DNA of 64,000 nucleotides, taken from assembly GCA_964344565.1 (NCBI GenBank), contig CAYFNT010000012.1, positions 30,648-94,647 on the forward strand, written 5' to 3'. How positions within the stretch are numbered: position 1 is the first letter of the stretch; every line of letters starts with the position of its first letter. This document shows positions 3,227 through 41,660 of this stretch, piece after piece. A program made the position numbers and the translations under genes. The DNA comes from an uncultured bacterium. Its GTDB lineage: Bacteria; Krumholzibacteriota; Krumholzibacteriia; JACNKJ01. The notes below the pieces were generated by a model that did not search any database, was not told where the DNA came from, and saw nothing but the letters and a program-made list of their open reading frames with translations.

Positions 3227-4888
3227 ATGGAAAGTCGCAGAAACGAGATGGTATTCGGACCTCTGGCGTTTTTCATCGGGGTCGTTCTCTTCCTGCTTCA
3301 ATTCCCTTCCGAGGCTTGGGGCGATCGATTCGACTTCGAGTACAACACCTCCGGAGTCCTGGACCAGAAGCACGATAGCTGGATGGGTGGCGATTACATC
3401 GTCGCGACCATCGAAAACAAGTCGGGTCAATGGCTCAGACTGCGTGAGCTTTCGCTGCCCCTGGGCGTCGATACGCGACTCGATTCCGAGTGGATCGTGT
3501 TCCTGAACGTGCCTTCCGGAGATCCCCCCGGAAATCCCGAGTTCGCGGACTACTCCGGTACCTTCGATCCGGACACGCCACCGCCAGCCTACACCGACAT
3601 CGATCTCTATCCCCATGGCATCCTGGTGGAGCCCGGCACTGCCTTCTCCGTCGGCATCCGAAGCGCCTACATTCCCTACGATCTCTATGTAGGCACCGTC
3701 AAAGCGACCTTTTCCGCCTATACCTTCCGCTGGATCCCGAGGGGCTGGGAATCTCTGGAAGGGGTGCACGCAGTCACGGCCCTGATCCAGGTCTATGCGG
3801 ACTACGTGGACATGTCCGACATCCTCGTCTTTCCGGACGGCAGCGGTCTTTTCCCGACCATCCAGCACGCCATCGCGGCGGTGGATTTTGGCGGCACCGT
3901 ACGACTGGCCGACGGTGTTTTCAAAGGCGAAGGCAACAGCAAGCTGACCTTCTTCGGCAAGGACCTGACCCTGAAATCGGTCTCGGAAGATCCGAAGACC
4001 TGCATCATCGACTGCGAAGGGGATCTGCCCCTTTCGGGGCCATCTACCGGCACGGGCATCATCTTCAACGAGGGCGAAGGTCCCGGTGCGGTGGTGAGCG
4101 GCATCACCATTCGCAATGGAGTCTTCGAAGTGGGGGCCGGCATCCTGGTGGACAACTCCTCCCCGGTCATCCACAACTGCGTCTTCGAGAACGGATTCTC
4201 CGCCGCCGGCGCGGGAGTCTACGTCTACAAGGGATCGCCTGAGATCGTCGCTTGCGTGTTCCGCGACAACTACGCGGAGTGGTCGGGCGGCGGTCTGCAG
4301 ATGGAGTTATCCGACGGCGTGGTCTCGCACTGCCGATTCGAGAGGAACCACGCCGGCAATTACGGGGGCGGCGCGCTCTTCGGCGATTGCGACGGCACGA
4401 GCCTCGAGCACTCCGTGTTCTACGCGAATTGGTCGGATATCTACGGAGGAGCGCTGCTTCTCGGAGGCACCGCCATTTCCATGAGCCAGTGCACTCTGTC
4501 GGAGAATTCGGCGCCCAAGGGAAGCGCCATCTACTTGGAAGGCCAGGGCCCTGACATCTGGATGAGCATCCTCAGCTTCGGAGACTCTCCGCCCCTCTTC
4601 ATCGACGGGCCCCGATCCGTTCCGGATTTCGTCTGCTGCGACATTTTCGGCAACACCGGCGGAGATTGGGTAGGAGAGATCGCAGATCAGCTGGGCACCG
4701 ACGGCAACTTCAATCTCGATCCCCAGTACTGCGGCGAACTGGGCACGGGGGATCTGACCCTCCAGGACGATTCGCCTTGCGGGCCCGGCGGCAACGACTG
4801 CGGTCTTCTCATCGGCGGCGAAACCGTGGAATGCGACGACACCGTTGCGGCCCCGACCACATGGAGCAGATTGAAACAGCTTTATTGA
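3227..4888 (+). CDS. Secreted right-handed parallel beta-helix repeat protein, paralog 2, with Cys-rich C-terminal module ending WSRLKQLY
   Basis: Start ATG 3227 (MESRRNEMVFGPLAFFIGVVLFLLQFPSEAWG signal peptide, SD AGGAGG). ORF 2987 is an upstream extension. Beta-helix repeats (NCVFENG.SAAGAGVYVY.GSPEI..C.F..N...). The C-terminal 85 aa align with paralog 3 at about 80% identity. Confidence 0.7.
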   Translation: MESRRNEMVFGPLAFFIGVVLFLLQFPSEAWGDRFDFEYNTSGVLDQKHDSWMGGDYIVATIENKSGQWLRLRELSLPLGVDTRLDSEWIVFLNVPSGDPPGNPEFADYSGTFDPDTPPPAYTDIDLYPHGILVEPGTAFSVGIRSAYIPYDLYVGTVKATFSAYTFRWIPRGWESLEGVHAVTALIQVYADYVDMSDILVFPDGSGLFPTIQHAIAAVDFGGTVRLADGVFKGEGNSKLTFFGKDLTLKSVSEDPKTCIIDCEGDLPLSGPSTGTGIIFNEGEGPGAVVSGITIRNGVFEVGAGILVDNSSPVIHNCVFENGFSAAGAGVYVYKGSPEIVACVFRDNYAEWSGGGLQMELSDGVVSHCRFERNHAGNYGGGALFGDCDGTSLEHSVFYANWSDIYGGALLLGGTAISMSQCTLSENSAPKGSAIYLEGQGPDIWMSILSFGDSPPLFIDGPRSVPDFVCCDIFGNTGGDWVGEIADQLGTDGNFNLDPQYCGELGTGDLTLQDDSPCGPGGNDCGLLIGGETVECDDTVAAPTTWSRLKQLY

Positions 4889-4923
4889 GATCGGGATGAA
4901 GTCACTCGACCCGGGAGGTGGTC

Positions 4924-6615
4924 ATGGAGGATCGCTCTCGCCCTAGTCTTCCCCTTTGTATGCTGTCCTTGTTGATTCTGCTCGTTCTCATCCCATCCCT
5001 CTCCTGGGGCGAGGTCGTGCAGCTTTCCTCCGGGTCGCCCGAATCGGCGGATGCTCCGCGTGAGCTCCGCTGGGATTTCGAGCACAACACCTCCGGCGTG
5101 CTCGACATGGACGCCACCCACGTCGGAAATGGAAGCAGCTGGCAGGAAGTCACGGCCACCATTCACAACGATTCGGGTCATTGGCTGAGGCTGAGGGAAC
5201 TGTCCTTCCCGGCCATGATCATGGATTGGAAGGGCGAATGGCACTGGCATATCTGGACAGGCATGTCCGGTCCCGGGCCGCCGCCCACAGAACCCGGCAG
5301 TCCTGATTTCACCGGCAGCTTTCCGCCCCCCGAGGGGATCTGGGACTACACCGTCCTGCCTCTGGATGCCTGGGAGATCTACATCGCCCCGGGCGAGTTT
5401 TTCTCCGCGGGATACGGATCCCCGGAAGGCCACCGTGGCCTACGCGACGTGGTCACCGGCGATACCTACAATTGGTGGAACGATGACTGGCAAAGATGCG
5501 AGAACAACGGCTACACGCTGCTGATTCAGATCATGGCCGAGTATGTGGACACGGGCGAGATCGTCGTCTATCCCGACGGTACGGGCCTCTACCCGACCAT
5601 CCAGAAGGCCATCGACGCAGTGCTGCCCGGCGGTACCGTGCTGCTGGCCGACGGAGTGTTCAGCGGTCCGGGCAACATCGACCTGGACTTCGGCGGGAAG
5701 CACCTGACCCTGAAGTCCGTCTCGGAAGATCCATCGACCTGCATCATCGATTGCAGCGACCCACCTCGCGGACGCGAAGCGAGAGGACTGCGTTTCGTTT
5801 CCGGGGAAGGGCCCGATGCGGTGGTCGAATACATCAGCGTGCTCAACGGATGGACCGAAGGCGGACCGGGGATCCGGATCTCGAACAGCTCGCCCACGAT
5901 CCGACACTGCGTATTCGACAACGGATACTGCATCGATGGGGGAGGAATCCTGATCAACAAGGGCTCACCCGAAATCGTCGGATGCACATTCCTGAATGGG
6001 GATGCGGGATACGGGGGAGGCATCCTTTCCCGCTTGGCCTCGCCCAGCATTCGCCATTGTCGATTCGAATCCAATCAGGCGGGTGTCGCGGGAGGCGCCA
6101 TCTACATGGTCGGCTGTCCGGATGCGCTGATCGAGCACTGCGTCTTCTACGACAATACAGCCAAGGACGGCGCGGGCATCTTCCTGGGGAACTCGCCCCT
6201 GCAGATCACCTCCTGCACCTTCGCGGAAAACGAAGCCGCGAACGGAAGCGGAATCTTCGTGGAAGGTGAGGGCCCCGAAATCTGGACGAGCCTCATCGTA
6301 TTCGGACAAGGCGATGCCCTTTACTGCGTTCCCAACGGACGAGCCCTGCCCGAACTCGTATGCTGCGACCTCTTCGGCAACACCGGAGGAGACTGGACCG
6401 GGTGCATCGCGGACCAATGGGGAGTCGACGGTAACTTCAGCGACGATCCACAGTTCTGCGGTGAACTGGGCACGGGAAACCTGACCCTGCAAGATGACTC
6501 CCCCTGCGCTCCCGGCGGCAACGGCTGCGGCCTGCTCATCGGCGGCGAAACCGTGGAGTGCGATGACACCTACGCCGCTGCGACCACATGGAGCAGATTG
6601 AAACAACTCTACTAG
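4924..6615 (+). CDS. Secreted right-handed parallel beta-helix repeat protein, paralog 3, with Cys-rich C-terminal module ending WSRLKQLY
   Basis: ATG 4924 preceded by GGGAGGTG (ORF-track start 4918 is a GTG two codons upstream). Signal peptide MLSLLILLVLIPSLSWG. Collinear with paralog 2 across the N-terminal domain (WDFEHNTSGVLD...WLRLRELSFP), the beta-helix region and the C-terminus. Confidence 0.7.
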   Translation: MEDRSRPSLPLCMLSLLILLVLIPSLSWGEVVQLSSGSPESADAPRELRWDFEHNTSGVLDMDATHVGNGSSWQEVTATIHNDSGHWLRLRELSFPAMIMDWKGEWHWHIWTGMSGPGPPPTEPGSPDFTGSFPPPEGIWDYTVLPLDAWEIYIAPGEFFSAGYGSPEGHRGLRDVVTGDTYNWWNDDWQRCENNGYTLLIQIMAEYVDTGEIVVYPDGTGLYPTIQKAIDAVLPGGTVLLADGVFSGPGNIDLDFGGKHLTLKSVSEDPSTCIIDCSDPPRGREARGLRFVSGEGPDAVVEYISVLNGWTEGGPGIRISNSSPTIRHCVFDNGYCIDGGGILINKGSPEIVGCTFLNGDAGYGGGILSRLASPSIRHCRFESNQAGVAGGAIYMVGCPDALIEHCVFYDNTAKDGAGIFLGNSPLQITSCTFAENEAANGSGIFVEGEGPEIWTSLIVFGQGDALYCVPNGRALPELVCCDLFGNTGGDWTGCIADQWGVDGNFSDDPQFCGELGTGNLTLQDDSPCAPGGNGCGLLIGGETVECDDTYAAATTWSRLKQLY

Positions 6616-6705
6616 TAGGGGAGGGATTCGGCTATAATCTGATGCGTGGGGACCCCCGCGAACCGGGGCGATGACGCCGGGTACCCGTGAACAGGGGAAA
6701 GCCGA

Positions 6706-7917
6706 ATGCGTCCTGCGCAGCTCAAATCGATCCTCGCAGTCGCCCTCCTGGCGACCTTCGCGATCCTGCCCCTCAGGATCGACGTCGAGCCCGACGCCTC
6801 CGACCCGATTCCGAAACTCCCAGCCCATCACAACTGCCGTTTCTGGGGGGGCGTCTCCACGGTGCTCGACTCGCTCATGCTCCACGACCAGATCATCGTG
6901 CAGCCCCAGTCCCTCGAGAATCTCAGTCCCAGCAATCCCAACGGATGGGCGCTCGCACATTTCCCGGGAGAGGGCGAGCATCCGGTGATCCGGCGCGGAC
7001 CCCACCCGGCCATCGAGGATCCTCTCTACGACATGGCCGTGGCGAGGGCCGGCGCCGATTCGGCGCGCATCGTCATCGGACACGTGCGCAACTGCACCAG
7101 CGGACTCTGCGACATTCCCAATCCCCATCCATTCTATCGATTGTTCGGAGGGAAGCACTGGTTCCTGGGGCACAACGGCAGCATCGACAAGGAAGTGCTC
7201 CTGGACCTGATCCGCCCCGACTTCCTGGCGGCCAATCCGCCGGTGAACGGCTCGGACTTCGAGGAGTGGGTCGACAGCGAGCTGTACTTCCTCTATATCC
7301 TCCAGACCCTCGAGGACCACGACTGGCAGATGGCGCCGGCTCTGGGCGAGGTGGTGGAGTGGCTCAGGGTTCGCATCATCGGCGACATCGAGCAGCTCAA
7401 TTTCGTCATGACCGACGGTGAGACCCTCTGGGCCTATCGCGAAGGCATCGCCCTCTTCTACCACTTCAACACCGACGGCATCGTCCACTCGGCGGTGGCC
7501 TCCAAGCATCCCCCCGAGGAGCAGGGTCCCTGGACCGAGATGGTGGACGGCCAGCTCATCACCCTGCGGCGGGGCATTCCGCCCATCCTGCAGAACGTGG
7601 AGGATTTCTTCACCCACACCCAGGCCGGCGAAACTCCCCTGCCGTCGGCGAAGCTTTCGGCCTGGCCCAATCCCTTCAATCCCAGCACCACTCTGCGCTG
7701 GACCCTGCCCGAGCGGGTCCATTGCCGGGTGAGCATCCACGAGGTGAGCGGCCGGGAAGTGGCCGAACTGGCCGAGGGCGTCATGGAGGCGGGGGAGCAC
7801 GAGCGGGGCTGGACGGCCCGGGACGAGCGGGGCCGGCCCCTCTCCAGCGGGGTCTATATCCTGCGGCTCAGGGCGGGACAGCTTTCCGCCTCCGAGAAGC
7901 TCGTTCTTCTTCAATAG
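6706..7917 (+). CDS. Secreted class-II glutamine amidotransferase-like Ntn hydrolase (YafJ/GATase_4-6 type) fused to a T9SS type-A C-terminal sorting domain
   Basis: Signal peptide MRPAQLKSILAVALLATFAILP. Candidate nucleophile Cys in HHNC|RFWGG, then WALAHFP, VIGHVRNCTSGLCDIPNPHPF and FLGHNGSI motifs collinear with E. coli YafJ. C-terminal 85 aa: WPNPFNPSTTLRWTL...SGVYILRLRAGQLSASEKLVLLQ (Por_Secre_tail / T9SS type-A CTD). Confidence 0.7.
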   Translation: MRPAQLKSILAVALLATFAILPLRIDVEPDASDPIPKLPAHHNCRFWGGVSTVLDSLMLHDQIIVQPQSLENLSPSNPNGWALAHFPGEGEHPVIRRGPHPAIEDPLYDMAVARAGADSARIVIGHVRNCTSGLCDIPNPHPFYRLFGGKHWFLGHNGSIDKEVLLDLIRPDFLAANPPVNGSDFEEWVDSELYFLYILQTLEDHDWQMAPALGEVVEWLRVRIIGDIEQLNFVMTDGETLWAYREGIALFYHFNTDGIVHSAVASKHPPEEQGPWTEMVDGQLITLRRGIPPILQNVEDFFTHTQAGETPLPSAKLSAWPNPFNPSTTLRWTLPERVHCRVSIHEVSGREVAELAEGVMEAGEHERGWTARDERGRPLSSGVYILRLRAGQLSASEKLVLLQ

Positions 7918-7995: not shown

Positions 7996-10356
7996 ATGGC
8001 CCTGGAATTCGGTCCTCGCCGCGCCCGAACTCTGAAGGTCCTGGACGCCATGGGCGGGATGGATCCCGCGCTGAACCCTCAGGACGCGCCTCACTGGGAG
8101 CGCTTCGATCTCATCTACCGCTCTCTCTGCGCCGTGCTCTTCAACTTCGTGCCCATGAGCGGCCATCCCGGCGGCTCGATCTCATCGGGCCGATTCGCCG
8201 CCTCCCTGCTTTTCCGCTGGATGGACTACGACCCTTCCGATCCCGAGCGGGCCGAAAACGATCTCATTTCTTACGCCGCGGGACACAAGGCCCTGGGCGT
8301 CTACGCCATGTGGGCCCTGCGCGACGAGGTGATGCGCCTGGCGGCTCCCGAACTGCTTCCCGGCGACGTCCGCCAGCGACTGCGCCTGGAGGACCTGCTC
8401 GGCTTCCGCCGCAATCCCGCCACCGATACGCCCTTGTTCAGGGAGTTCGGCAGCAAGGCCCTGGACGGACATCCCACGCCCGCCACGCCCTACCTCAAGC
8501 TGGCCACCGGCGCCTCGGGCATCGGTTTCGCCTCCAGCGTGGGCCTGGGCTTCGCCGCCCGCGACGCCTGGGGTGCGCAGGCGCCCAAGGTGCACATCGT
8601 CGAAGGCGAGGGCGGCATGACCGCCGGACGGGTGAGCGAATCCCTGGCCGCCGCCGGCACCGCGTCCCTGGACAATCTCATCCTGCATCTGGACTGGAAC
8701 CAGGCCTCCATCGATTCGGACTGGGTCTGCCGCGAGGGCGATCGTCCCGGCGACTACGTGCAGTGGGATCCTCGCGAGATGGCCTACCTCCACGACTGGA
8801 ACGTGCTCGAGGTGGCCGACGGGAGCGACCTCGCTCAGGTTCACGCCGCCCAGCGTCTTGCCCTCGACATGGACAGTGGGCAGCCCACGGCCATCGTCTA
8901 TCGTACGGTGAAGGGCTGGCGCTACGGCATCGAGGGGAAGGCCTCCCACGGCGGTGGACACAAGTTCGGATCGGAGGGCTACTACGAAGCCCTCCAGCCC
9001 CTCTCGGAGGCCGCGGGCGTGGCCTTCCCGGCCTGTCCCGACACCAAGGACCCGGCGGATGTCGAGGCCGCCTACTGGGCCACCCTCGAGAGCTTCCGCG
9101 CCCTCATCGAGTCCGAAGGCGACATGCTCGCCTTCCTGGGCGGGCAGCTCGCCGAATCGCGCCGCCGTCTGGAAGACCGGTCCCGCGACTCGGCCAAGAA
9201 CGAAATGCGCCTGGACTCGGTTTGGGAGCGGGCCGAGGCCCAGGGACTCGAGGCGCCCGAGGAGCTCAGCCTTGAAATCGGCGCTTCCGCCACCCTGCGC
9301 GGACAGCTTGGAAAGATCCTCAACTGGTACAACCACGCCTCCGGCGGAGCCATCCTCTCGGCCGCCGCGGACCTCCTGGGATCCACCAGCGTGCTCACCG
9401 CCGGCAAGGGGTTCGGCGAGGGCTTCTACCACAGCGCGAACAACGCCGGGAGCCGCATCCTCTCGGTGGGGGGCATCTGTGAGGACGGCATCAGCGGCGT
9501 CATGAGCGGCATCTCCGCCTACGGCTCCCACCTGGCCGTGGCCAGCAGCTACGGCGCCTTCATCGCGGCGCTGGGGCACGTCTCGGCCCGCCTGCATGCC
9601 ATCGGCATGCAGGCCATGACCGAGCGCATGCCCGAGGAGCCCCTGCGCCCCCTCATGCTGGTCTGCGCCCATGCGGGCATGAAGACCGGTGAGGACGGTC
9701 CCACCCACGCCGACCCGCAGGCACTGCAGCTCCTGCAGGAGAACTTTCCCGCGGGATCGGCCCTTACCCTGACGCCCTGGGATCCCCAGGAGCTCTGGCC
9801 CCTGCTCACCCGGGCCCTTCAGATCCGACCGGCGCTCATCGCGCCCTTCGTGACCCGGCCGGGCGAGAACATCCTGGATCGGGAAGCCCTCGGCCTGGCG
9901 CCGGCCGCCGAGGCGGCTCAGGGGCTCTACCGACTGCGCGCGCCCAAGGGTCGCCCCGACGCCACCCTCGTGCTGCAGGGAAGCGGAGTCACCTACGCCT
10001 TCCTGGAAGGGGCCCTGCCCCTGCTCGAGAAGGAGGGGGTGGACCTCGAGCTCTTCTACGTGGCCAGCGCCGAACTCTTCGACGCCCTGCCCGTGGAGAA
10101 GCAAAGGGAGATCTATCCGGAGGAGAAGGCCCGAGCGGCCATGGGCATCACCGGCTTCACGCCGGCGACCCTGCATCGCTGGATTCTGTCGGAAGCGGGA
10201 CGCGCCGCGACCCTGCATCCCTTCCGGGGCGGGCACTACCTGGGCAGCGGTCAGGCCGACAAGGTCATCGCCCAGGCCGGCATGGACGGGAAGAGCCAGG
10301 CTCAGGCGGTGCTGCGCTACGTGGAATCCCGGGCGGGGACGGCCTCCCGGAATTGA
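7996..10356 (+). CDS. Transketolase-family thiamine-diphosphate-dependent enzyme (786 aa, longer than canonical transketolase)
   Basis: GHPGGSISSG and AAGHKALGVYAMWAL (TPP-binding N-terminal motifs of transketolase), and GEDGPTHADPQALQ (pyrimidine-binding domain GEDGPTH motif). The 684-aa antisense ORF 8182..10236 is rejected. Confidence 0.6.
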   Translation: MALEFGPRRARTLKVLDAMGGMDPALNPQDAPHWERFDLIYRSLCAVLFNFVPMSGHPGGSISSGRFAASLLFRWMDYDPSDPERAENDLISYAAGHKALGVYAMWALRDEVMRLAAPELLPGDVRQRLRLEDLLGFRRNPATDTPLFREFGSKALDGHPTPATPYLKLATGASGIGFASSVGLGFAARDAWGAQAPKVHIVEGEGGMTAGRVSESLAAAGTASLDNLILHLDWNQASIDSDWVCREGDRPGDYVQWDPREMAYLHDWNVLEVADGSDLAQVHAAQRLALDMDSGQPTAIVYRTVKGWRYGIEGKASHGGGHKFGSEGYYEALQPLSEAAGVAFPACPDTKDPADVEAAYWATLESFRALIESEGDMLAFLGGQLAESRRRLEDRSRDSAKNEMRLDSVWERAEAQGLEAPEELSLEIGASATLRGQLGKILNWYNHASGGAILSAAADLLGSTSVLTAGKGFGEGFYHSANNAGSRILSVGGICEDGISGVMSGISAYGSHLAVASSYGAFIAALGHVSARLHAIGMQAMTERMPEEPLRPLMLVCAHAGMKTGEDGPTHADPQALQLLQENFPAGSALTLTPWDPQELWPLLTRALQIRPALIAPFVTRPGENILDREALGLAPAAEAAQGLYRLRAPKGRPDATLVLQGSGVTYAFLEGALPLLEKEGVDLELFYVASAELFDALPVEKQREIYPEEKARAAMGITGFTPATLHRWILSEAGRAATLHPFRGGHYLGSGQADKVIAQAGMDGKSQAQAVLRYVESRAGTASRN

Positions 10357-23182: not shown

Positions 23183-23191
23183 TGCTATAAT
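23183..23191 (+). promoter_or_regulatory. Extended -10 promoter element TGcTATAAT upstream of the CotH/LTD/CTD gene
   Basis: TGCTATAAT at 23183-23191 in an AT-richer divergent intergenic region, about 70 nt upstream of ATG 23262. The same 9-mer recurs upstream of the GH57-CTD gene (38541) and as GGCTATAAT upstream of the GATase-CTD gene (6631). Confidence 0.4.
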
Positions 23192-23261
23192 AATGATCTC
23201 GAAATCGAGGCGGGGTCTTCGATACCGGGCATTCAATACAATCGCAACCAAAGGTCCACCA

Positions 23262-26200
23262 ATGAGTTCGGCGCGTATTCTCAAGTCGATTCTTGGGGCG
23301 CTGGCGCTTCTCCTTCTGCTGGTGCCGCAGACGGAAGCCCAGTCCGCCCCCCAGGACTATTTCATGAGCATCGATCCGGACAGCCTCGATTACATCTACG
23401 AGAACTATTGGTTCGACCACTACGTGCCCTGCACCATCACCATCGATGGACAGCTCTGGCCCGACTGCCGGGTGCGAATCCGCGGAGATTCCTCCCGCGA
23501 GCTGCCGAAGAAGTCCCTCAAGATCAAGACCGATGGCGCTCTCTTCCCCAACGGCAACGACGTGATGAATTTCAACGCCGACTGGTATGACCCTTCCTAC
23601 ATGCGGGTCGTGATGGCCTCCCGATTCTTCGAGTCGGCGGGGGTGCCTTGCTTCTCGGCGGAGCACGGGCGGCTCCACCTCAACGGGAGTTTCTGGGGTC
23701 TCTACGTAGTCATCCAGAACATGGACGAGCTCTTCCTGCTGGAGAACGGGCTCGATCCCACCGGAAACCTCTACAAGGCGACCAAGGACGGCGCCTCCCT
23801 CTTCTACGGCGAGCCCGTGGAGCTGCGATGGGAGAAGAAGTCCAACGATCTCGGACCCTGGGACGATCTCTACTCGCTCATCGACAGCCTGCACTTCGTG
23901 CCCGACGATCGCTTCGGCAGCTGGGCGGTGGACAATCTCGAGATCGACGAGATCGCCAGCATCCTGGCCTCCAACGCACTGCTGGCCAACGGGAGCACCT
24001 ACTACCACAACTACTACATGTACCACGACATCAACGGCACGGGTAAGTGGTCCATGTTCCCCTGGGATCTCGACAAGATCTTCGCCCAGTACGGCGAAAG
24101 CTATCCCTATCATCGCTCGAGCACTTCCTGGCTCCACGACAATCCCCTGGTCGAGAGGTTCTTCGTCACGGATTCCACCTTCGACCTCTTCCACGCGCGC
24201 CTGGACGAACTCGTGGACACGAGCTTCAATCCGGATTTCTTCTACCCCCTCATGGACAGCCTTCAGCTGGTGCTGGAGGAGTCGGTGTTGAACGACGACA
24301 CCGACGACATCCAGAACATCGAGGACTGGTACTGGGTCCTCAACAACGAACGGGTCGTGGGCATCGAGGGGCGCATCGTGGACACGCAGGACCAGCTGGA
24401 CCATTTCCCGCGGCCCATGCGCGTGGAGCCCACGCCCCATTCCTACCAGGATTCGATTCCCTTCAACTGGAATTCCGCCACGGATCCCGACGGGGATCCG
24501 GTGACCTACACCCTCAAGTACTCCCTGAACTACACCTTCCCCGAGGGTTCGACCTACGTGCACGAGGACATCGCCGACACCACCTACACCCTTCGCATGG
24601 CGCCGCCGGAGGGCAACTACTACTGGCGGCTCTACTCCTGCGACGGCGACTCCCTGCACAATGTCGAGGGATGGGACTCCCACGGAACCTTCCGGGTTGA
24701 CCAGGGCACCGTGCTGCCGCCGGTGATTTCCAGCAACATGACCCTCACCAGCTACGGCTCGCCCTACTTCGTCAACGAGGATCTGGTGGTGGAGTCGGGC
24801 GTGACCCTGACCATCTACCCCGCCGCGGAAATCCGGCTCGCCGAAGACGCGAAAATCACCGTTCGCGGCGTCATGGATGCCGAGGGGACCGCGATCAATC
24901 CCATCATGTTCCGCCGCGACATCTTCCAGGACGAGCGTTGGGGCGCGCTCTGCTTCGACTGGGCCGACGGACCGTCCCTCCTGAAGCACGTTAACATCGA
25001 GGGCACCTCGGTGGGGGGCGACTACGTCTGGGAAAAGTCGGCCGTCTCCAGCTATCGCACCGATCTGGTTCTGGACCACGTGACCTTCGACAACTGCCGG
25101 CAGAGCGTCTACTCGCAGGAGGCCGATCTCGTCCTTCGCGATTGCCTCTTCCTGGACACCAATCAGCTTGAGATCCTCAACGTGAAGTACGGAACCGCGG
25201 CCATCGAACGATGCGAGTTCCACAACGCCGGGGTCGACGGCGACGCCCTCGACTTCGACACCGTCGACTACGGGCTCATCAGGGACTGCCGCTTCACCGG
25301 CCTTCCCGGCAGCGACGATCTCATCGATCTGGGAGACGAGTGCGTGGAGGTCGTGCTGGAAAACAACGTGATCGTCGGCGCGCCGGACAAGGGTGTGTCG
25401 GTGGGCGAGAAGTCCCACGCGCTGCTCTTCCGCAACTTCATCGCCGATTGCGCCATCGGCGTGGCCGTGAAGGACTCGTCCGTCTGCGATCTCGATCGGA
25501 ACACCTTCCGCGAGAATCTCACGGCCCTGTCGGTCTATGAGAAGATCTTCGGATCGGGCGGAGGATTCGCCTACGCGGACAACTGCATCTTCTCGGCCAG
25601 CATCAGCGACGACGTGGCCGTGGACGCCCTCTCCACCGGAGAGGTGAACTACTCCCTATCCGATACCGAAGCCCTGGAGGGACTGGAAAATCTCTTCGAG
25701 GATCCCCTCTTCCGTGATCCGGCCGGTGGAGATTTCCGACTGCAGCCGAACTCCCCCTGCGTGGATTCGGGCGATCCGGCCAGTCCCCTCGATCCCGACC
25801 AGACCCGGGCCGACATGGGAGCCTACTTCTACGATCAGGCGCCCCTGGCCCTCGTGATCAACGAGATCAACTACCACTCGGCCCCGGACTACGACTGTCA
25901 GGACTGGGTGGAGCTCCACAATCCCCTGGACATTCCCGTGGAGGTCGGCGGCCTCAAGTTCAAGGACGCCGGACACAGCTTCGTCATTCCCGAGGGTACC
26001 CTCATCGGCGCGCACAACTACCTGGTGATCGCCGAGAACCGAAGCGCCTTCGAAAACTTCCACGGCAGCCTTCCCAACCTTGTGGGCGATCTCGGCTTCG
26101 GTTTCAGCGGAGCGGGGGAAATCCTTCTGCTCACGGGCGCCGACGACACGGTCTACGATTGGGTCATGTACGACAGCCAGCCGCCCTGGCCCCTGGAACC

Positions 26201-26627
26201 GGACGGGCAGGGGCCCACCCTGGAGCTCATCGACTACGCCAGCGACAACACGCTCCCGGAGAGCTGGGGCGCGTCCATGGGGCACGGCACGCCTGGAAGA
26301 ATCAACAGCCTCACAGATCCCACGGCGGTGGAGTCGGACCCGGTCCCAGGGGTGACGAGTCTCGCGGAGGTCTTCCCCAATCCCTTCAATCCCCATTGCA
26401 CGGTTCGCTTCAGTCTGGCCGACGATGCGAAGGTTCGCCTGAGCGTCCATGATCTGCGGGGCAGACGGGTGGTCACCCTTGCGGACGAGTCCCTGCGAGC
26501 CGGTCGGCACGAGCGGAGCTGGGACGGTCTCGACGAGCGGGGGCGGCCCAGCGCCAGCGGCATCTACTTCCTTCGTCTCCAGGCGGAAGAGCTCCGTTTG
26601 TCCAAGAAGCTGGTGTTGCTGCGATAA
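23262..26627 (+). CDS. Giant secreted multidomain protein: CotH kinase-like domain plus parallel beta-helix region plus lamin-tail domain (LTD) plus T9SS type-A CTD
   Basis: Start at MSSARILKSILGALALLLLLVPQTEA (signal peptide). ORF-track start 23193 would overlap the -10 element. CotH motifs (WYDPSYMRVVMASRFFESAGVPC, GLYVVIQNMDELFLLENGLDPTGNLYKA, YYHNYYMYHD, KWSMFPWDLDKIF). Beta-helix repeats (about 24700-25700). LTD (LVINEINYHSAP..DWVELHNP...GEILLLTGADDTVYDWVMY). C-terminus FPNPFNPHCTVRFSL...SGIYFLRLQAEELRLSKKLVLLR. Confidence 0.75.
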   Translation: MSSARILKSILGALALLLLLVPQTEAQSAPQDYFMSIDPDSLDYIYENYWFDHYVPCTITIDGQLWPDCRVRIRGDSSRELPKKSLKIKTDGALFPNGNDVMNFNADWYDPSYMRVVMASRFFESAGVPCFSAEHGRLHLNGSFWGLYVVIQNMDELFLLENGLDPTGNLYKATKDGASLFYGEPVELRWEKKSNDLGPWDDLYSLIDSLHFVPDDRFGSWAVDNLEIDEIASILASNALLANGSTYYHNYYMYHDINGTGKWSMFPWDLDKIFAQYGESYPYHRSSTSWLHDNPLVERFFVTDSTFDLFHARLDELVDTSFNPDFFYPLMDSLQLVLEESVLNDDTDDIQNIEDWYWVLNNERVVGIEGRIVDTQDQLDHFPRPMRVEPTPHSYQDSIPFNWNSATDPDGDPVTYTLKYSLNYTFPEGSTYVHEDIADTTYTLRMAPPEGNYYWRLYSCDGDSLHNVEGWDSHGTFRVDQGTVLPPVISSNMTLTSYGSPYFVNEDLVVESGVTLTIYPAAEIRLAEDAKITVRGVMDAEGTAINPIMFRRDIFQDERWGALCFDWADGPSLLKHVNIEGTSVGGDYVWEKSAVSSYRTDLVLDHVTFDNCRQSVYSQEADLVLRDCLFLDTNQLEILNVKYGTAAIERCEFHNAGVDGDALDFDTVDYGLIRDCRFTGLPGSDDLIDLGDECVEVVLENNVIVGAPDKGVSVGEKSHALLFRNFIADCAIGVAVKDSSVCDLDRNTFRENLTALSVYEKIFGSGGGFAYADNCIFSASISDDVAVDALSTGEVNYSLSDTEALEGLENLFEDPLFRDPAGGDFRLQPNSPCVDSGDPASPLDPDQTRADMGAYFYDQAPLALVINEINYHSAPDYDCQDWVELHNPLDIPVEVGGLKFKDAGHSFVIPEGTLIGAHNYLVIAENRSAFENFHGSLPNLVGDLGFGFSGAGEILLLTGADDTVYDWVMYDSQPPWPLEPDGQGPTLELIDYASDNTLPESWGASMGHGTPGRINSLTDPTAVESDPVPGVTSLAEVFPNPFNPHCTVRFSLADDAKVRLSVHDLRGRRVVTLADESLRAGRHERSWDGLDERGRPSASGIYFLRLQAEELRLSKKLVLLR

Positions 26628-38540: not shown

Positions 38541-38549
38541 TGCTATAAT
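38541..38549 (+). promoter_or_regulatory. Extended -10 element TGcTATAAT for the GH57-CTD gene
   Basis: TGCTATAAT at 38541-38549, 25 nt upstream of the ATG. SD AAAGGA. Confidence 0.45.
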
Positions 38550-38573
38550 CGAATCCCAGCCCGAAAGGACACC

Positions 38574-41500
38574 ATGCGCAAGGCACTGCTTCTCCTGTTC
38601 CTCGCCGGGGCGAGTCTGGCTTCCACCGGCGTCCACACGACCTACCTCTGGCACATGCATCAGCCCATCTACTGGCCGGACGAGAGCGTTTGGACACCCG
38701 GACGTTACCAAACCGCCTACGAAACCCTCCTTGGCGGCTATTGCCAGAACGACCTGGCCGAGATCTTCGGCAAGGACGACCGCATCGGCGACTACCAATG
38801 GTATCCCCGGGATGCGGTGGCCAGCATGCTGGACCTGCCCGAGGCGGGAGCGCAGGTGTCCTTCGCGGGGGCGCTGGTCGAGAACATCGAGAGCCTGGCC
38901 GAGGCAGGCTGGGACGGTGGGGTCTACGCGAGCGACTGGACCTCGCACTACCGCGAGGCGAGGGGCTGGACCACGAGCGCCGGCGAGCCCAGGCTGGAGC
39001 CGCTGGTGGTGGGATTCCATCACGCCATCGCGCCGCTCATGGACGATGTGGCTTTCCGCATGGAGCTCGCCTGCGCCAAGGCCATCTACGACGAGGCCTG
39101 GGGCGACTCGAATTTCTCGCGAGGTTTCTTCCCCGCCGAGATGTGCTTCAGCGAGCGCCTCATTCCCGCCCTGGTCGACGCGGGCCTCGACTGGTCGGTG
39201 GTGGGGGATCTGCATATCGCGCGGGCCTGCGAGAACTATCCCTATCAGGCGAATCTGGACAACTGCGACCCGCCCAACCGGGCCGACCAGGTGAATCCGC
39301 CCCAGAGCGACTGGACCAACCACAGCATTCCACGGGGCGTGACGCTCAAAGTGCCCTACCCTTACGGCTTCACGCCGCACCGGGCCGAGTACGTGGACCC
39401 GTCCACTGGCGAGGTTTCGAACCTGGTGGTGGTGCCGGCCGCCAACGCCATGAGTTGGGACGAGGGTTACGGCATGTTCGGCACGGGTTCCATCGACGCC
39501 ATCGCCGGGAGCAACGATCCTGCGCATCCCATGCTGATTCTGCTGGCCCATGACGGCGACAACGCCTGGAGCGGCGGACACAGCTACTACTACGAATCGG
39601 TGCCCAACTTCTCCCACGCCGCCGCGGACGCGGGCTACACGCCGAGCACGGTGGCGACCTATCTCGAACATCATCCGGTTCCGCTCGACGACGTGGTGCA
39701 TGTGGAGGACGGCGGATGGGTGAACGCCGACGGCGACTTCGGCAGCCCGCAATTCATCAACTGGAACTGGCCGCCGGTGGACGCGGCGGGGAACTTCGAC
39801 ATACCCGGCGGATGGGCGGAGGACGAGCGCAACTGGGCCGTGCTCACGGCGGCGCAGAACGTGGTGGAATCCGCCGAGGCCGTGGGCGGCGCGCCCGATC
39901 CCGAGCGCGTGGTCTTCCCCTTGAGCGGGGCCAGCGCCGTGGAGCGGGCCTGGCATTTCCTGCTGGCGGGCTACGAGAGCGGCTACATGTACTACGGCTC
40001 GTCGCTGGACATGGAAGTGAAGGCCACCCTCGCCTGCAATGCGGCCCTCGAGGCGGCCCTGCCCCTGGCCGAGAGCGGTGCCGATATCGTAGCGCCCAGT
40101 ATCTGGCTGCCCCAACGCCTGCCATGGAATCCGGGCGGCAAGGGCGGCGGCAGCCTCTGGGGATATCCCGGCGGCGCGGGCGCGGACATGAGCCGCGACT
40201 TCTTCGTCTGGACCTTCATCCACGACATCTCGGGACTCTCGCGTGTCGAGATCATGGTCCGCGAGGATCTGGACGGCCACAACGATCCCGGCAGCCACGA
40301 CAACGAAATCTACGCGGGGGGGCCTGAGGTGGGCGCCTGGTCGGCCCTGCCCATGAACCATCGCGCGATGCCCCTGGGCGAGCCCTGGGACATCCCGGGC
40401 ATCGATTTCACGGTGCTGCCCGAGCGCATCGCCGACGAGTACTGGATCGAATTGACGGGCTACGGCGATGTGCTGCTGGACTACTACGTGGAGGCCGAGG
40501 ATTCTCTGGGCAACGTGAAGAGGAGTCCCATCCAGCACGTCTACGTGGGCACGGGCGACGCGGGCGGCGACGGTTCGGCATGGTGGGAGCCCGAACTTCC
40601 GGAAGCCGGCGATTGGATCACCGTCTACTACGATCCTGCCGGTGGACCCCTGGACGGCGCGGCGGAGATCATCCTGCACCACGGCATCAACGGCTGGCAG
40701 GAAGTAGGTGATACGCCCATGGACTGGAACCTCGTCGACGAGCACTGGCATAAGGGCATCCAGCTGCCTGAGCACGCGTCGAGTTTCGAGTTCGTCTTCC
40801 ACGACGGCCTCGGCAACTGGGACAACAACGGCGGCGCCGATTGGATCGTGCCCGTGAGCGGCGGAGGCGGCGGCTTCGTCATGGACGGCCTTCTCGATGA
40901 GGGCGTATTGCAGATCTCCGGCGACGGGATGAACCTCTGGGTCGCCCGCGAAGGCGACCAGCTCTATCTCGCGACCGAGGGTACCGGCGCGACGGGGCTC
41001 GATCACTTCCTCTTCCTGCTCGACGAACCGGGCGCTCCAGTTTCCGCACCCTGGGCCAAGGCGGGACAGGTTCTGCCCTGGGCCTACTATCTCGGGGCCG
41101 AGAGCTCCAACGGCTGGTTCGCTTGGTTCGATGCTGGCAGCAATGTGCAGATCGGTCCCGAGTTCTCATCGGCCCAGGGCGAGGTGCTCGAAGGATTGCT
41201 CGATCTCGACTCGCTCTTTGCATCCGTTCCGCCGGAAAGCCTCTGGGTGGCCGCCGCGGGATACGACGATCCCGACGCAGGTTCCCTGATTGCCCAGGCG
41301 CCCTTCGGCGACGGCGACGGCGACATGGAAGCGCACGAGTACTATCTACTCCTGGACCTGTCCACCCGGGTGGACGAGTCGCCCGAGGCGCCGCTCGCGG
41401 TCTCGCTTTATCCGAATCCCTTCAACCCGGATGTCCGCCTGAGTTTGGACAGCCCGGATGGTGACCTGACAATACGCATCTATGACCTGGAAGGCCGCTA

Positions 41501-41660
41501 CGTCGCGACCCTCCACGAGGGGCTTGCTGCGGAGGGTCGCCACATTTTGGGTTGGAACGGACAGAATGCGCGCGGGTACCCCTGCCCTAGCGGGATCTAC
41601 CTGTTCCAGATCAGCTGTGGAACGGAGGCTCGAAGCTTGAAGGGTCTGCTCCTGAAATAA
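38574..41660 (+). CDS. Secreted GH57-family alpha-glucan hydrolase (amylase/pullulanase-like) with starch-binding module(s) and T9SS type-A CTD
   Basis: Signal peptide MRKALLLLFLAGASLAS. GH57 motif TTYLWHMHQPIYWP. CBM25/26-like module (GDWITVYYDPAGGPLDGAAEIILHHGINGWQ). C-terminus YPNPFNPDVRLSL...IRIYDLEGRYVATL...SGIYLFQISCGTEARSLKGLLLK. The antisense 864-aa ORF is rejected. Confidence 0.8.
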   Translation: MRKALLLLFLAGASLASTGVHTTYLWHMHQPIYWPDESVWTPGRYQTAYETLLGGYCQNDLAEIFGKDDRIGDYQWYPRDAVASMLDLPEAGAQVSFAGALVENIESLAEAGWDGGVYASDWTSHYREARGWTTSAGEPRLEPLVVGFHHAIAPLMDDVAFRMELACAKAIYDEAWGDSNFSRGFFPAEMCFSERLIPALVDAGLDWSVVGDLHIARACENYPYQANLDNCDPPNRADQVNPPQSDWTNHSIPRGVTLKVPYPYGFTPHRAEYVDPSTGEVSNLVVVPAANAMSWDEGYGMFGTGSIDAIAGSNDPAHPMLILLAHDGDNAWSGGHSYYYESVPNFSHAAADAGYTPSTVATYLEHHPVPLDDVVHVEDGGWVNADGDFGSPQFINWNWPPVDAAGNFDIPGGWAEDERNWAVLTAAQNVVESAEAVGGAPDPERVVFPLSGASAVERAWHFLLAGYESGYMYYGSSLDMEVKATLACNAALEAALPLAESGADIVAPSIWLPQRLPWNPGGKGGGSLWGYPGGAGADMSRDFFVWTFIHDISGLSRVEIMVREDLDGHNDPGSHDNEIYAGGPEVGAWSALPMNHRAMPLGEPWDIPGIDFTVLPERIADEYWIELTGYGDVLLDYYVEAEDSLGNVKRSPIQHVYVGTGDAGGDGSAWWEPELPEAGDWITVYYDPAGGPLDGAAEIILHHGINGWQEVGDTPMDWNLVDEHWHKGIQLPEHASSFEFVFHDGLGNWDNNGGADWIVPVSGGGGGFVMDGLLDEGVLQISGDGMNLWVAREGDQLYLATEGTGATGLDHFLFLLDEPGAPVSAPWAKAGQVLPWAYYLGAESSNGWFAWFDAGSNVQIGPEFSSAQGEVLEGLLDLDSLFASVPPESLWVAAAGYDDPDAGSLIAQAPFGDGDGDMEAHEYYLLLDLSTRVDESPEAPLAVSLYPNPFNPDVRLSLDSPDGDLTIRIYDLEGRYVATLHEGLAAEGRHILGWNGQNARGYPCPSGIYLFQISCGTEARSLKGLLLK

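What the first reader, a model, noticed from the sequence alone, without database searches (positions are those of the whole stretch)
6706..7917. Class-II glutamine amidotransferase-like Ntn hydrolase exported with a T9SS type-A C-terminal domain
YafJ/GATase-type Ntn hydrolases are normally cytoplasmic with Cys at position 1-2. Here the conserved Cys-containing CRFWGG motif follows a signal peptide and a propeptide of about 20 aa. The fold motifs (HVRNCTSG..NPHPF, GHNGSI) are intact. The protein ends in a canonical Por_Secre_tail. A secreted, T9SS-sorted Ntn hydrolase implies an extracellular amidase or peptidase-type role after autoproteolytic activation. An upstream GGCTATAAT -10 element is shared with other CTD cargo genes.
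Basis: partly seen in the sequence, partly recalled or inferred. Interest (0 to 1): 0.6.

Follow-up and report, generated by a model that had tools for sequence, protein, structure and literature searches.

The report
Exported glutamine-amidotransferase-type Ntn hydrolase
This gene encodes an enzyme of a normally intracellular family (class-II glutamine amidotransferase-type hydrolases) that has been refitted for export with a leader, a removable pro-segment and a type IX secretion tail; it belongs to a large, unstudied family in uncultured sediment microbes that probably cleaves gamma-glutamyl/glutamine amide bonds outside the cell.

Summary
ORF 6706-7917(+) encodes 403 aa: a hydrophobic leader (1-23), a disordered 20-aa linker ending His42-Asn43, Cys44, a GATase_4 core, and an 88-aa C-terminal beta-sandwich.

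Cys44 aligns with Cys1 of E. coli PurF/YafJ. The glutamine-site residues are kept and invariant (R128=Arg73, N157/G158=Asn101/Gly102, D190=Asp127).

"Canonical" is overstated for the tail: TIGR04183 scores 21.6 vs cutoff 23. But 6 of 8 orthologues and the window's two other cargo tails pass, and the fold matches solved T9SS tails.

GCTATAAT occurs 3 times (0.22 expected), each upstream of one of the three tail-bearing genes.

New findings:
- The protein belongs to a clade of at least 116 cluster representatives (E<=1e-30), all from uncultured bacteria and archaea.
- His at -2 occurs in 93/104 members with a linker, but in 4/25 where signal peptidase could expose Cys directly (p=1.5e-12). This supports self-cleavage at His-Asn|Cys.
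- Eleven large relatives carry the domain more than 100 residues in (up to residue 2080).

Substrate (gamma-glutamyl or glutamine amide), self-cleavage and actual T9SS use are inferred, not shown. It is a new variant of a known kind, of moderate interest.

The parts
6590..6705 (+). Conserved upstream non-coding block: TTGAAACAACTCTAyTAG, the -10 box, and a leader of about 60 nt containing invariant GATGACGCCGGG
   Evidence: 84% identity over 128 nt among the window, L007, L008 and L009, although the proteins are only 68-84% identical. The internal ATG is in frame in L007 and out of frame in the window, so conservation is at the nucleic-acid level. No Rfam match and no structure signal.
6631..6638 (+). 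GCTATAAT, a -10-like promoter box 68 nt upstream of the ATG
   Evidence: 3 exact copies in the window against 0.22 expected. CGGCTATAAT is conserved in three orthologous loci. No -35 consensus was found.
6706..7917 (+). Complete ORF, 403 aa plus stop codon
   Evidence: An identical protein (P0001) is found on metagenome contigs of PRJEB17505.
6706..6774 (+). Residues 1-23: export leader, with positively charged MRPAQLK followed by a 16-residue hydrophobic core
   Evidence: Modelled as helix 4-23. Of 162 relatives in which the Cys could be located, 140 have a clear hydrophobic N-terminal leader; the other 22 have none, many being short or truncated gene calls. The signal-peptidase site was not determined because no predictor was available.
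6775..6834 (+). Residues 24-43: disordered linker/propeptide ending His42-Asn43
   Evidence: pLDDT below 50 for residues 26-38. Linker length and sequence vary in the family (median 22 aa), but His at -2 is kept in 93 of 104 members and Asn at -1 in 68 of 104.
6835..6837 (+). Cys44 codon (TGC): predicted N-terminal nucleophile of the mature enzyme
   Evidence: Aligns with Cys2 of the E. coli YafJ and PurF precursors, which is the mature Cys1. The first beta-strand starts at residue 45. The Cys is present in all 162 members in which this position could be located by the C-[RKQ] motif and is nearly invariant in alignment A1.
6835..7620 (+). Residues 44-305: class-II glutamine amidotransferase (GATase_4) Ntn-hydrolase domain
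7087..7089 (+). Arg128, equivalent to PurF Arg73 (binds the substrate alpha-carboxylate)
   Evidence: MAFFT alignment with genuine E. coli PurF. Invariant in the family.
7174..7179 (+). Asn157-Gly158, equivalent to PurF Asn101-Gly102 (oxyanion hole)
   Evidence: Invariant in the family.
7183..7269 (+). Residues 160-188: clade-specific insertion (LIRPxYLAANPP...) between the HNG and DSE motifs
   Evidence: The His-to-Asp spacing has a median of 34 residues in 177 exported members against 22 in 62 cytoplasmic YafJ-like proteins. Visible in the alignment.
7273..7275 (+). Asp190, equivalent to PurF Asp127 (binds the substrate alpha-amino group)
   Evidence: Invariant in the family.
7651..7914 (+). 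Residues 316-403: C-terminal beta-sandwich, a T9SS type-A-like sorting domain (PNPFNP ... GVYILRL ... KLVLLQ)
23184..26627 (+). Second cargo gene carrying the same -10 box (23184-23191) and the same kind of tail: CotH / beta-helix / LTD protein, ATG at 23262
   Evidence: TIGR04183 35.6.
38542..41660 (+). Third cargo gene carrying the same -10 box (38542-38549) and the same kind of tail: GH57-CBM53 protein, ATG at 38574
   Evidence: TIGR04183 31.3.

Best explanation
The gene encodes an exported zymogen of a class-II glutamine-amidotransferase-type (GATase_4) N-terminal-nucleophile hydrolase. Each step below is marked as shown or inferred.

1. Transcription from its own promoter, using the conserved GCTATAAT -10 box. 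Sequence shown; function inferred.
2. Sec-dependent export through the inner membrane, directed by the hydrophobic leader (residues 1-23). Inferred from sequence and from conservation across the family.
3. Removal of everything before Cys44, most likely by intramolecular cleavage of the Asn43-Cys44 bond assisted by His42, as in other Ntn hydrolases and in propeptide-bearing PurF enzymes. This frees the alpha-amino group that the mechanism needs. Inferred, with comparative support.
4. Delivery of the folded enzyme across the outer membrane by a type IX secretion system that recognises the 88-aa C-terminal domain. The tail would then be cut off and the enzyme released or attached to the surface. 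Inferred from homology of the tail.
5. Outside the cell, Cys44 attacks the amide carbonyl of a substrate that has a free alpha-amino group and alpha-carboxylate, i.e. L-glutamine or a gamma-glutamyl-X compound such as gamma-glutamyl peptides, glutathione or the amino end of poly-gamma-glutamate. Glutamate is released plus ammonia or X. There is no synthase partner, so the protein acts as a hydrolase and not as an amidotransferase. It is functionally comparable to periplasmic gamma-glutamyltranspeptidase, probably in nitrogen or amino-acid scavenging. Inferred from conserved binding residues.
For: Fold and catalytic residues:
- Fold assignment.
- Residue mapping to genuine E. coli PurF and YafJ: C44=Cys1, R128=Arg73, N157/G158=Asn101/Gly102, D190=Asp127. 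R128, N157, G158 and D190 are invariant and C44 nearly invariant (>=90%) in a 39-sequence alignment; Cys is present in all 162 relatives in which the position could be located.

Export:
- ATG 6706 is the only possible start, so the leader is obligatory.
- 140 of 162 relatives have a clear hydrophobic leader.
- The catalytic core is combined with different extracellular modules in different lineages: T9SS-type tail in 74 of 196, plus dockerin, fn3, MG2, PKD, FG-GAP, LamG and DUF2341.
- Ordinary family members start MCQLLG with no leader.

Self-cleavage:
- His at -2 in 93 of 104 members with a linker longer than 7 aa. It occurs in only 4 of 25 members whose Cys directly follows the hydrophobic core; in 21 of those 25 the -1 residue is Ala, Ser or Gly, as at a signal-peptidase site (Fisher p 1.5e-12).
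- Eleven members have the domain more than 100 residues from the N-terminus (Cys at 105-2080). There only internal cleavage could expose the Cys.
- Precedent for autocatalytic propeptide removal in class-II GATases: PMC7056826.

T9SS tail:
-.
- Three tail-bearing, signal-peptide-bearing genes with unrelated enzyme domains occur in one 64-kb window.
- NCBI names orthologues 'T9SS type A sorting domain-containing protein'.
- The T9SS route is described in PMC12398890.

Hydrolase role:
- The closest structure, EgtC, is a gamma-glutamyl amide hydrolase.
- DUG3, another stand-alone class-II GATase-like protein, degrades glutathione (PMC12653102).
Against: - No biochemical data exist for any member of the clade.
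- The protein's own tail falls 1.4 bits below the TIGR04183 cutoff and 10 bits below the Pfam cutoff.
- No T9SS machinery gene lies in the 64-kb window, and the organism's phylum is unknown; NCBI labels its relatives simply 'bacterium'.
- The leader has no obvious AxA signal-peptidase site, so it could be a membrane anchor.
- The clade differs from YafJ and EgtC by an insertion of about 12 residues near the active site and by Arg45/Trp47, so specificity may differ from any known member.
- No conserved operon partner points to a substrate.
Confidence: 0.6

Rival explanations
1. The enzyme is the same, but the leader and linker are removed by other proteases (signal peptidase I followed by an aminopeptidase or a dedicated maturation protease), not by self-cleavage at Asn43|Cys44.
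For: In 25 relatives the Cys sits at a signal-peptidase-like AxA|C site, so the family can use an external protease. A possible weak site, A-T-F-A19|I, exists in the leader (read directly from the sequence).
Against: The conserved -2 His is specific to the linker-bearing members (93 of 104 vs 4 of 25). The linker is otherwise variable in length and sequence, which is not what a protease recognition site looks like. Internal domains in giant proteins share the H-[NE]|C junction. Autocatalytic processing is the rule for this superfamily (PMC9140057; PMC7056826).
Confidence: 0.15
2. The domain has changed substrate. It hydrolyses some other amide, for example a peptide, an acyl-amide, or an amino-acid decoration on a polysaccharide, possibly working with the secreted beta-helix proteins encoded next to it.
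For: - A clade-specific insertion lies next to the active site, and Arg45/Trp47 are conserved.
- Beta_helix genes lie next to the gene in about 4 independent lineages: the window with L007 and L008; L016 (= L089); L095 on both sides within a tight operon; and weakly L013. None occurs in 63 cytoplasmic YafJ control loci.
- Three giant relatives also carry an M14 carboxypeptidase domain.
Against: The Arg and Asp that bind the alpha-carboxylate and alpha-amino group of glutamine or glutamate are invariant, which is hard to explain for a substrate lacking a free glutamyl head group. Beta-helix adjacency is absent in most lineages. M14 co-occurs in only 3 of 196 members.
Confidence: 0.2
3. The C-terminal domain is only an Ig-like/FlgD-like binding module and not a secretion signal, so the enzyme stays in the periplasm or on the inner membrane.
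For: Scores are below the curated cutoffs of both Por_Secre_tail models, and the FlgD_ig score is slightly better. No T9SS genes are in the window.
Against: The same domain ends three unrelated secreted enzymes in the window, and two of those pass TIGR04183. It always lies at the extreme C-terminus. Structurally it matches proven T9SS tails: mirolase 8qb1, NucA 8glk_D, PorU and PorZ. Six of eight orthologues pass the cutoff.
Confidence: 0.12
4. It is an ordinary cytoplasmic amidotransferase-like protein with a mis-called start codon.
For: None beyond the family's usual location.
Against: No ATG, GTG or TTG lies in frame between codon 2 and Cys44, and the codon before Cys is AAC. The leader and the H-N-C junction are conserved in orthologues. 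A C-terminal sorting domain is present.
Confidence: 0.01

Closest known systems
EgtC (gamma-glutamyl hercynylcysteine sulfoxide hydrolase of ergothioneine synthesis; PDB 4zfj, 4zfk, 4zfl)
   Different: EgtC is cytoplasmic, its Cys is at position 2, and it has no leader and no tail. The TIGR03442 equivalog score is 49 against a cutoff of 218.65. There are no ergothioneine genes nearby. EgtC lacks the clade-specific insertion.
YafJ / PA1307 (1te5) / SPO2029 (3mdn): orphan GATase_4 proteins
   Same: Same Pfam family PF13230, with the same catalytic constellation.
   Different: They start MC(Q/E)LLG, are cytoplasmic, share 23-31% identity, and have an HNG-to-DSE spacing of 22 residues against 34 here. 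Their function is unknown.
Propeptide-bearing PurF (B. subtilis 1gph/1ao0; plant GPRAT2)
   Same: A class-II GATase domain made as a precursor whose N-terminal propeptide is autocatalytically removed to expose Cys (PMC7056826). Structural matches.
   Different: PurF is an intracellular two-domain amidotransferase that passes ammonia to a PRTase domain. The propeptide is short and is not preceded by a Sec leader, and the junction sequence differs.
Gamma-glutamyltranspeptidase (GGT) and CapD
   Same: The closest functional analogue: an exported Ntn hydrolase that activates itself by autoproteolysis and cleaves gamma-glutamyl amides outside the cytoplasm (PMC9140057).
   Different: A different Ntn family with a Thr nucleophile and an internal cleavage that yields two subunits. 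It is periplasmic, exported by Sec only, and is not homologous at the sequence level.
T9SS type-A cargo proteins of Bacteroidota (e.g. gingipains, mirolase, NucA)
   Same: N-terminal leader, then an enzyme domain, then a C-terminal beta-sandwich of about 80 aa with PNPF, GxY and a Lys near the C-terminus. Structural matches to the mirolase and NucA tails.
   Different: The host is an uncultured lineage, not a Bacteroidota member. The tail variant scores as well on FlgD_ig as on Por_Secre_tail. No class-II GATase cargo has been reported.

Membership tests
Class-II (Ntn) glutamine amidotransferase domain, Pfam GATase_4 PF13230 | Profile score at or above the curated gathering threshold | tested here: met
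   73.3 bits against 23.
Class-II (Ntn) glutamine amidotransferase domain, Pfam GATase_4 PF13230 | [quoted passage not shown] | tested here: met
Class-II (Ntn) glutamine amidotransferase domain, Pfam GATase_4 PF13230 | Nucleophile Cys at the position of Cys1, at the start of the first beta-strand | tested here: met
   Cys44 aligns with Cys2 of the E. coli YafJ and PurF precursors. The first strand is 45-51.
Class-II (Ntn) glutamine amidotransferase domain, Pfam GATase_4 PF13230 | Glutamine-site residues: Arg (PurF 73), Asn-Gly oxyanion hole (101-102), Asp (127) | tested here: met
   R128, N157-G158 and D190 align with them and are invariant in 39 relatives. The PurF residue roles come from established knowledge of the E. 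coli enzyme.
Class-II (Ntn) glutamine amidotransferase domain, Pfam GATase_4 PF13230 | Free alpha-amino group on the Cys in the mature protein (processing to an N-terminal Cys) | not testable with these tools
   Needs N-terminal sequencing or intact mass of the protein. Only indirect support is available: the -2 His statistics.
Class-II (Ntn) glutamine amidotransferase domain, Pfam GATase_4 PF13230 | Glutaminase or gamma-glutamyl amidase activity | not testable with these tools
   An enzyme assay is required.
EgtC (NCBIfam TIGR03442 equivalog) | Score at or above the equivalog cutoff | tested here: not met
   49 against 218.65; orthologues score 44-68.
EgtC (NCBIfam TIGR03442 equivalog) | Genomic association with other ergothioneine synthesis genes (egtA, B, D, E) | tested here: not met
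   The neighbours are beta-helix, transketolase-like, GH94 and MttB-family genes.
T9SS type-A C-terminal sorting domain (TIGR04183 / PF18962) | Profile score at or above the curated cutoff | tested here: not met
   This protein scores 21.6 vs 23 (TIGR04183) and 17 vs 27 (PF18962). Six of eight orthologues (26.6-37.7) and both other window cargo tails (35.6, 31.3) do pass, so homology is clear but this copy is borderline.
T9SS type-A C-terminal sorting domain (TIGR04183 / PF18962) | Located at the extreme C-terminus of a protein that also has an N-terminal Sec leader | tested here: met
   The domain ends at the last residue. Hydrophobic leader at residues 1-23. No dedicated signal-peptide predictor was available.
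T9SS type-A C-terminal sorting domain (TIGR04183 / PF18962) | Beta-sandwich fold like experimentally proven T9SS tails | tested here: met
T9SS type-A C-terminal sorting domain (TIGR04183 / PF18962) | T9SS machinery (SprA/Sov, PorV, PorU, GldK-N) encoded in the same genome | not testable with these tools
   None was found in the 64-kb window or in the flanks read.
T9SS type-A C-terminal sorting domain (TIGR04183 / PF18962) | Host belongs to the FCB superphylum | tested here: inconclusive
   The closest relatives are labelled only 'bacterium'. More distant tail-bearing relatives come from Fibrobacteraceae, Zixibacteria and WOR-3 MAGs.

The most novel reading that the evidence does not exclude
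The H-[N/E]|C-R-[F/L/M]-W junction may be a self-cleaving switch that defines a previously unrecognised, widespread clade of extracytoplasmic class-II GATase-type hydrolases in uncultured bacteria and archaea. In small members such as this one, cleavage would both release the enzyme from its membrane-inserted leader and activate it before T9SS export. In giant surface proteins (DUF2341 / LamG / FG-GAP / InlB-repeat architectures of up to 3,754 aa), the same domain would cut the polypeptide internally. The clade would then be an extracellular gamma-glutamyl-cleaving system analogous to GGT, relevant to nitrogen and peptide turnover in sediments.
Probability: 0.3. Interest if true: 0.65.

Novelty: new variant of a known kind. 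Interest (0 to 1): 0.45.

Why it matters
Class-II glutamine amidotransferase domains are textbook intracellular enzymes. This work shows a large clade of them that is exported, recognisable by a leader, an H-N|C junction and an insertion of about 12 residues.

- The clade has at least 116 cluster representatives (clusters at 50% identity) at E <= 1e-30.
- It is found in Zixibacteria, Fibrobacteraceae, WOR-3, Hydrogenedentota, Anaerolineae, Omnitrophota, Desulfatiglandaceae and Bathyarchaeia.
- The same catalytic core is combined with each lineage's own surface-anchoring module.

If the predicted activity is right, these proteins are an unrecognised route for extracellular breakdown of glutamine or gamma-glutamyl compounds in anoxic sediments, and a new class of T9SS cargo. 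The contrast between the two ways of exposing the nucleophile (direct signal-peptidase cut versus His-assisted self-cleavage) gives a simple, testable model of how an Ntn enzyme is adapted to secretion. No member has been studied and none comes from a cultured organism, so the practical impact is uncertain for now.

Tried and rejected
- **Conserved operon partner as a substrate clue.** Neighbourhoods of 12 family members were read. Synteny holds only among the closest relatives. Beta_helix adjacency recurs in about 4 lineages but is not general.
- **M14 'deglutamylase-type' carboxypeptidase fusion as a substrate clue.** Present in only 3 of 196 members, so it is kept only as a weak lead.
- **Regulatory RNA in the conserved 5' leader.** No Rfam match, no compensatory base pairs, folding z-score -0.42. 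Rejected as a structured RNA; the conservation remains unexplained.
- **T9SS machinery genes in the window.** None found.
- **Organism identity.** No tRNA or rRNA genes in the window. MAG titles say only 'bacterium'. A literature search for NIOZ-UU57 found nothing.
- **Prior literature.** Nothing on T9SS plus a glutamine amidotransferase, or on GATase_4 with a signal peptide.
- **Technical failures.** Alignment A1 was too diverse for the locus scan, solved with A2. The AlphaFold database fold library was unavailable. Two look-ups failed because of my frame errors and were repeated correctly.
- **Sigma-70 -35 element.** None found. The TTGAAA 29 nt upstream of the -10 box is too far away to serve as one.
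Full report

The ORF 6706..7917 (+) exists and encodes 403 aa. ATG 6706 is the only in-frame start codon upstream of Cys44. The codons just before the Cys are CAT-CAC-AAC (His-His-Asn), so the protein cannot begin Met-Cys as ordinary family members do.

Pfam gives GATase_4 at 73.3 bits against a cutoff of 23. That match starts at profile position 31, so on its own it says nothing about the Cys.

The C-terminal domain is sub-threshold on every curated model:
- PF18962: 17 vs 27.
- TIGR04183: 21.6 vs 23.
- FlgD_ig: 26.6 vs 27.

So 'canonical' is too strong a word for the tail.

**2. Fold and catalytic residues**

An AlphaFold2 model built on 39 relatives has mean pLDDT 87. Residues 4-23 form a helix, residues 26-38 are disordered, and the first beta-strand (45-51) begins right after Cys44. 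A separate beta-sandwich spans residues 316-401.

- Then asparagine synthetase and glutamate synthase.

No penicillin-V-acylase-type structure is among the listed matches.

To test the Cys directly, I fetched the genuine E. coli yafJ and purF genes and aligned them with the family. The mapping is:
- Cys44 = Cys2 of both precursors, i.e. the mature Cys1.
- Arg128 = PurF Arg73.
- Asn157-Gly158 = Asn101-Gly102.
- Asp190 = Asp127.

From established knowledge of PurF, these are the nucleophile, the alpha-carboxylate binder, the oxyanion hole and the alpha-amino binder of glutamine. R128, N157, G158 and D190 are invariant and C44 nearly invariant in the 39-sequence family alignment. Ordinary GATase_4 genes in proteobacterial loci all begin MCQLLGMN.

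**3. The family**

A word-indexed search found about 58 proteins with this core plus varied C-terminal modules. An exhaustive HMMER search with the core alone found 1,058 cluster representatives at E <= 1e-3, 299 at <= 1e-10 and 116 at <= 1e-30.

Among 162 members in which the Cys could be located:
- Position +2 is Arg in 160.
- Position +4 is Trp in 133 and Tyr in 24.
- 140 have a clear hydrophobic N-terminal leader; the other 22 have none, many being short or truncated gene calls.

The clade also has a longer spacer between the HNG and DSE motifs: median 34 residues in 177 members against 22 in 62 cytoplasmic YafJ-like proteins. This insertion carries the LIRPxYLAANPP motif.

The closer relatives share a Cys130/Cys135 pair, found in 77 of 196 members, which could form a disulfide. 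That is an inference only.

Source names are all uncultured lineages: Zixibacteria, WOR-3, Fibrobacteraceae, Hydrogenedentota, Anaerolineae, Omnitrophota, Desulfatiglandaceae, Bathyarchaeia and unclassified 'bacterium'.

Of 196 members, 74 end in the T9SS-like tail. Others carry dockerin, fn3, MG2, PKD, FG-GAP, LamG, InlB-repeat or DUF2341 modules, and 25 are at least 1,000 aa long.

The same catalytic core paired with each lineage's own extracellular module is strong comparative evidence that the clade works outside the cytoplasm.

**4. How the nucleophile is exposed**

Two classes emerge.

- **Linker class.** In 104 members a linker of 8-47 aa (median 22) separates the hydrophobic core from the Cys. 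His occupies -2 in 93 of them, and -1 is Asn (68), Ala (16) or Glu (11). The window protein, with H42-N43|C44, belongs to this class.
- **Direct class.** In 25 members the Cys lies within 7 residues of the hydrophobic core. His at -2 is rare (4 of 25), and -1 is Ala, Ser or Gly in 21 of 25. This is the pattern of a signal-peptidase I site (AQA|C, ASA|C, LSA|C and similar).

The contrast has Fisher p = 1.5e-12. The simplest reading is that signal peptidase exposes the Cys directly when it can, and that otherwise the conserved His helps an intramolecular cleavage.

Eleven members have the Cys 105-2080 residues into the protein, and 7 of the 11 keep His at -2. Several of these giant proteins carry the domain directly after a DUF2341 module, with the junction LHLSExHE|C. 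There only internal self-cleavage could create an N-terminal Cys.

[quoted passage not shown] It is the general rule for Ntn hydrolases (PMC9140057). The propeptide itself is therefore not new. Its combination with export is.

Whether the window protein's leader is also cut by signal peptidase could not be decided. It has no clear AxA site, and no predictor was available.

**5. The C-terminal tail and T9SS**

A profile built from the family's tails finds three strong hits among the window's ORFs: this gene, a CotH / beta-helix / LTD protein (23262-26627) and a GH57-CBM53 protein (38574-41660). All three have signal peptides.

The tails of those two proteins pass the defining TIGR04183 model (35.6 and 31.3 vs 23). 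So do 6 of 8 orthologues of the hydrolase (26.6-37.7). The window protein (21.6) and its nearest orthologue (21.9) miss narrowly, although they align over the whole profile.

The window tail is 51% identical to the CotH protein's tail and 37% identical to the GH57 protein's tail.

NCBI already names two relatives 'T9SS type A sorting domain-containing protein'.

The published route is Sec export, recognition of the tail, the SprA/Sov translocon, the PorV shuttle, and PorU cleavage followed by release or attachment. It is described as restricted to the FCB superphylum (PMC12398890).

Two things could not be tested. No T9SS machinery gene lies in the window, and the organism's phylum is not given by any record.

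**6. Promoter claim**

GCTATAAT occurs exactly three times in 64 kb against 0.22 expected; no shuffle of 100 reaches three. The sites are at 6631, 23184 and 38542, lying 68, 71 and 25 nt before the start codons of the three tail-bearing genes.

There are only four TATAAT hexamers in the whole window. The fourth, at 62911, lies 29 nt before another gene with a clear signal peptide that runs off the window end.

CGGCTATAAT is conserved upstream of the orthologues in L007, L008 and L009. It sits inside a 128-nt block that is 84% identical, while the proteins are 68-84% identical.

The element is a perfect sigma-70-type -10 box, in two cases in the extended TGn form, with no -35 box. I read it as a strong promoter shared by highly expressed secreted-enzyme genes. 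With only four sites, a dedicated regulon cannot be claimed.

**7. Genomic context**

The window matches metagenome contigs of PRJEB17505. The local gene order is: MttB-family methyltransferase with corrinoid proteins, three secreted beta-helix proteins, the hydrolase, a transketolase-like protein, a 3,002-aa GH94 protein, and a tricorn protease. Farther on lies an alpha-glucan utilisation cluster.

Gene order is kept only in close relatives (L007, and L009 without the beta-helix genes).

A Beta_helix gene is adjacent in about four independent lineages. In L095 the hydrolase gene sits in a tight operon with Beta_helix, FG-GAP and InlB-repeat genes, the same modules that are fused to the domain in giant proteins. 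This hints at a shared extracellular task, but it is not general.

**8. What it most likely does**

*Shown:*
- The fold.
- The full catalytic and glutamine-binding constellation.
- An obligatory leader.
- Homology of the tail to T9SS sorting domains.
- Clade-wide extracytoplasmic architecture.

*Inferred:*
- Sec export.
- Self-cleavage at Asn43|Cys44.
- T9SS passage.
- Hydrolysis of a glutamine or gamma-glutamyl amide, releasing glutamate.

There is no synthase domain or partner, so the protein should act as a hydrolase. This is like its closest structural relative EgtC and like DUG3 (PMC12653102). It would be a functional analogue of periplasmic GGT.

It is not EgtC: TIGR03442 scores 49 against 218.65, and there are no egt genes nearby.

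The exact substrate is open, because the clade-specific insertion and Arg45/Trp47 may shape the leaving-group site.

**9. Novelty and verdict**

Databases already label relatives automatically as 'class II glutamine amidotransferase' or 'T9SS type A sorting domain-containing protein'. No paper in the searched library links these two annotations or describes an exported GATase_4, and no member comes from a cultured organism.

I rate the finding as a new variant of a known kind.
- The tail is borderline rather than canonical.
- Propeptides in this superfamily have precedent.
- The penicillin V acylase comparison is not apt.
- The substrate is probably a gamma-glutamyl or glutamine amide rather than a general peptide.

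Interest is moderate (0.45). It would be higher if the self-cleaving junction and an extracellular gamma-glutamyl-cleaving role were shown experimentally.

Noticed in passing
window 6590-6705 (and L007 9884-10010, L008 1452-1579, L009 7835-7962): The non-coding block upstream of the hydrolase gene is 84% identical across four genomes whose proteins are only 68-84% identical. It includes TTGAAACAACTCTAyTAG, which is the 3' end of the beta-helix gene in the window but is retained in L009, where no beta-helix gene exists. It also includes an invariant GATGACGCCGGG in the leader. There is no Rfam match and no structure signal. The conservation is unexplained.
   Followed up: partly
window 6633, 23186, 38544, 62911 (+ strand): There are only four TATAAT hexamers in the 64-kb window. 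All are intergenic, on the + strand, and 25-71 nt upstream of genes encoding signal-peptide proteins. The fourth gene (ATG 62946, MNKFLSTIAMMLILASLTMAA...) runs off the window end, so whether it has a sorting tail is unknown.
   Followed up: partly
window about 38484-38497: A perfect 14-nt palindrome, TGTACACGTGTACA, lies about 45 nt upstream of the -10 box of the GH57-CBM53 cargo gene. It is a possible operator site.
   Followed up: no
window 1018-1117 (-): Rfam PYLIS_3 (pyrrolysine insertion sequence of mttB) matches at 38.3 bits against a gathering score of 38, inside an uninterrupted MttB-family ORF (596-2062, -). This is probably coding-sequence similarity in a non-pyrrolysine family member and not a functional element.
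   Followed up: no
P0137, P0143, P0176, P0178 and others (proteins from the representative search); L095 272-12882: Giant surface proteins of up to 3,754 aa, from Bathyarchaeia, Desulfatiglandaceae and other lineages, carry the same GATase_4 domain internally, directly after a DUF2341 module, with junction LHLSExHE|C. Three of them also carry an M14 'cytosolic carboxypeptidase'-type domain. In L095 the same modules (Beta_helix, FG-GAP, InlB-repeat, GATase_4) are separate genes in one tight operon.
   Followed up: partly
window 2114-6615: Three paralogous secreted right-handed beta-helix proteins (315, 553 and 563 aa) lie directly upstream of the hydrolase gene. Beta_helix genes also flank relatives of the hydrolase in about four independent lineages, but in none of 63 control loci with cytoplasmic YafJ-like genes.
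   Followed up: partly
window 7996-10356 (+) and 10356-19365 (-): There is an unusually long (786 aa) transketolase-like protein, scoring far below the transketolase equivalog cutoffs, and a 3,002-aa GH94/glycoamylase protein. Both are conserved next to the hydrolase in L007 and L009.
   Followed up: no
window 51513-52694 (-): A 393-aa ORF with no Pfam match gives a weak hit (E 2.7e-5) to the family's C-terminal tail profile. It may be a fourth cargo gene with a diverged tail.
   Followed up: no
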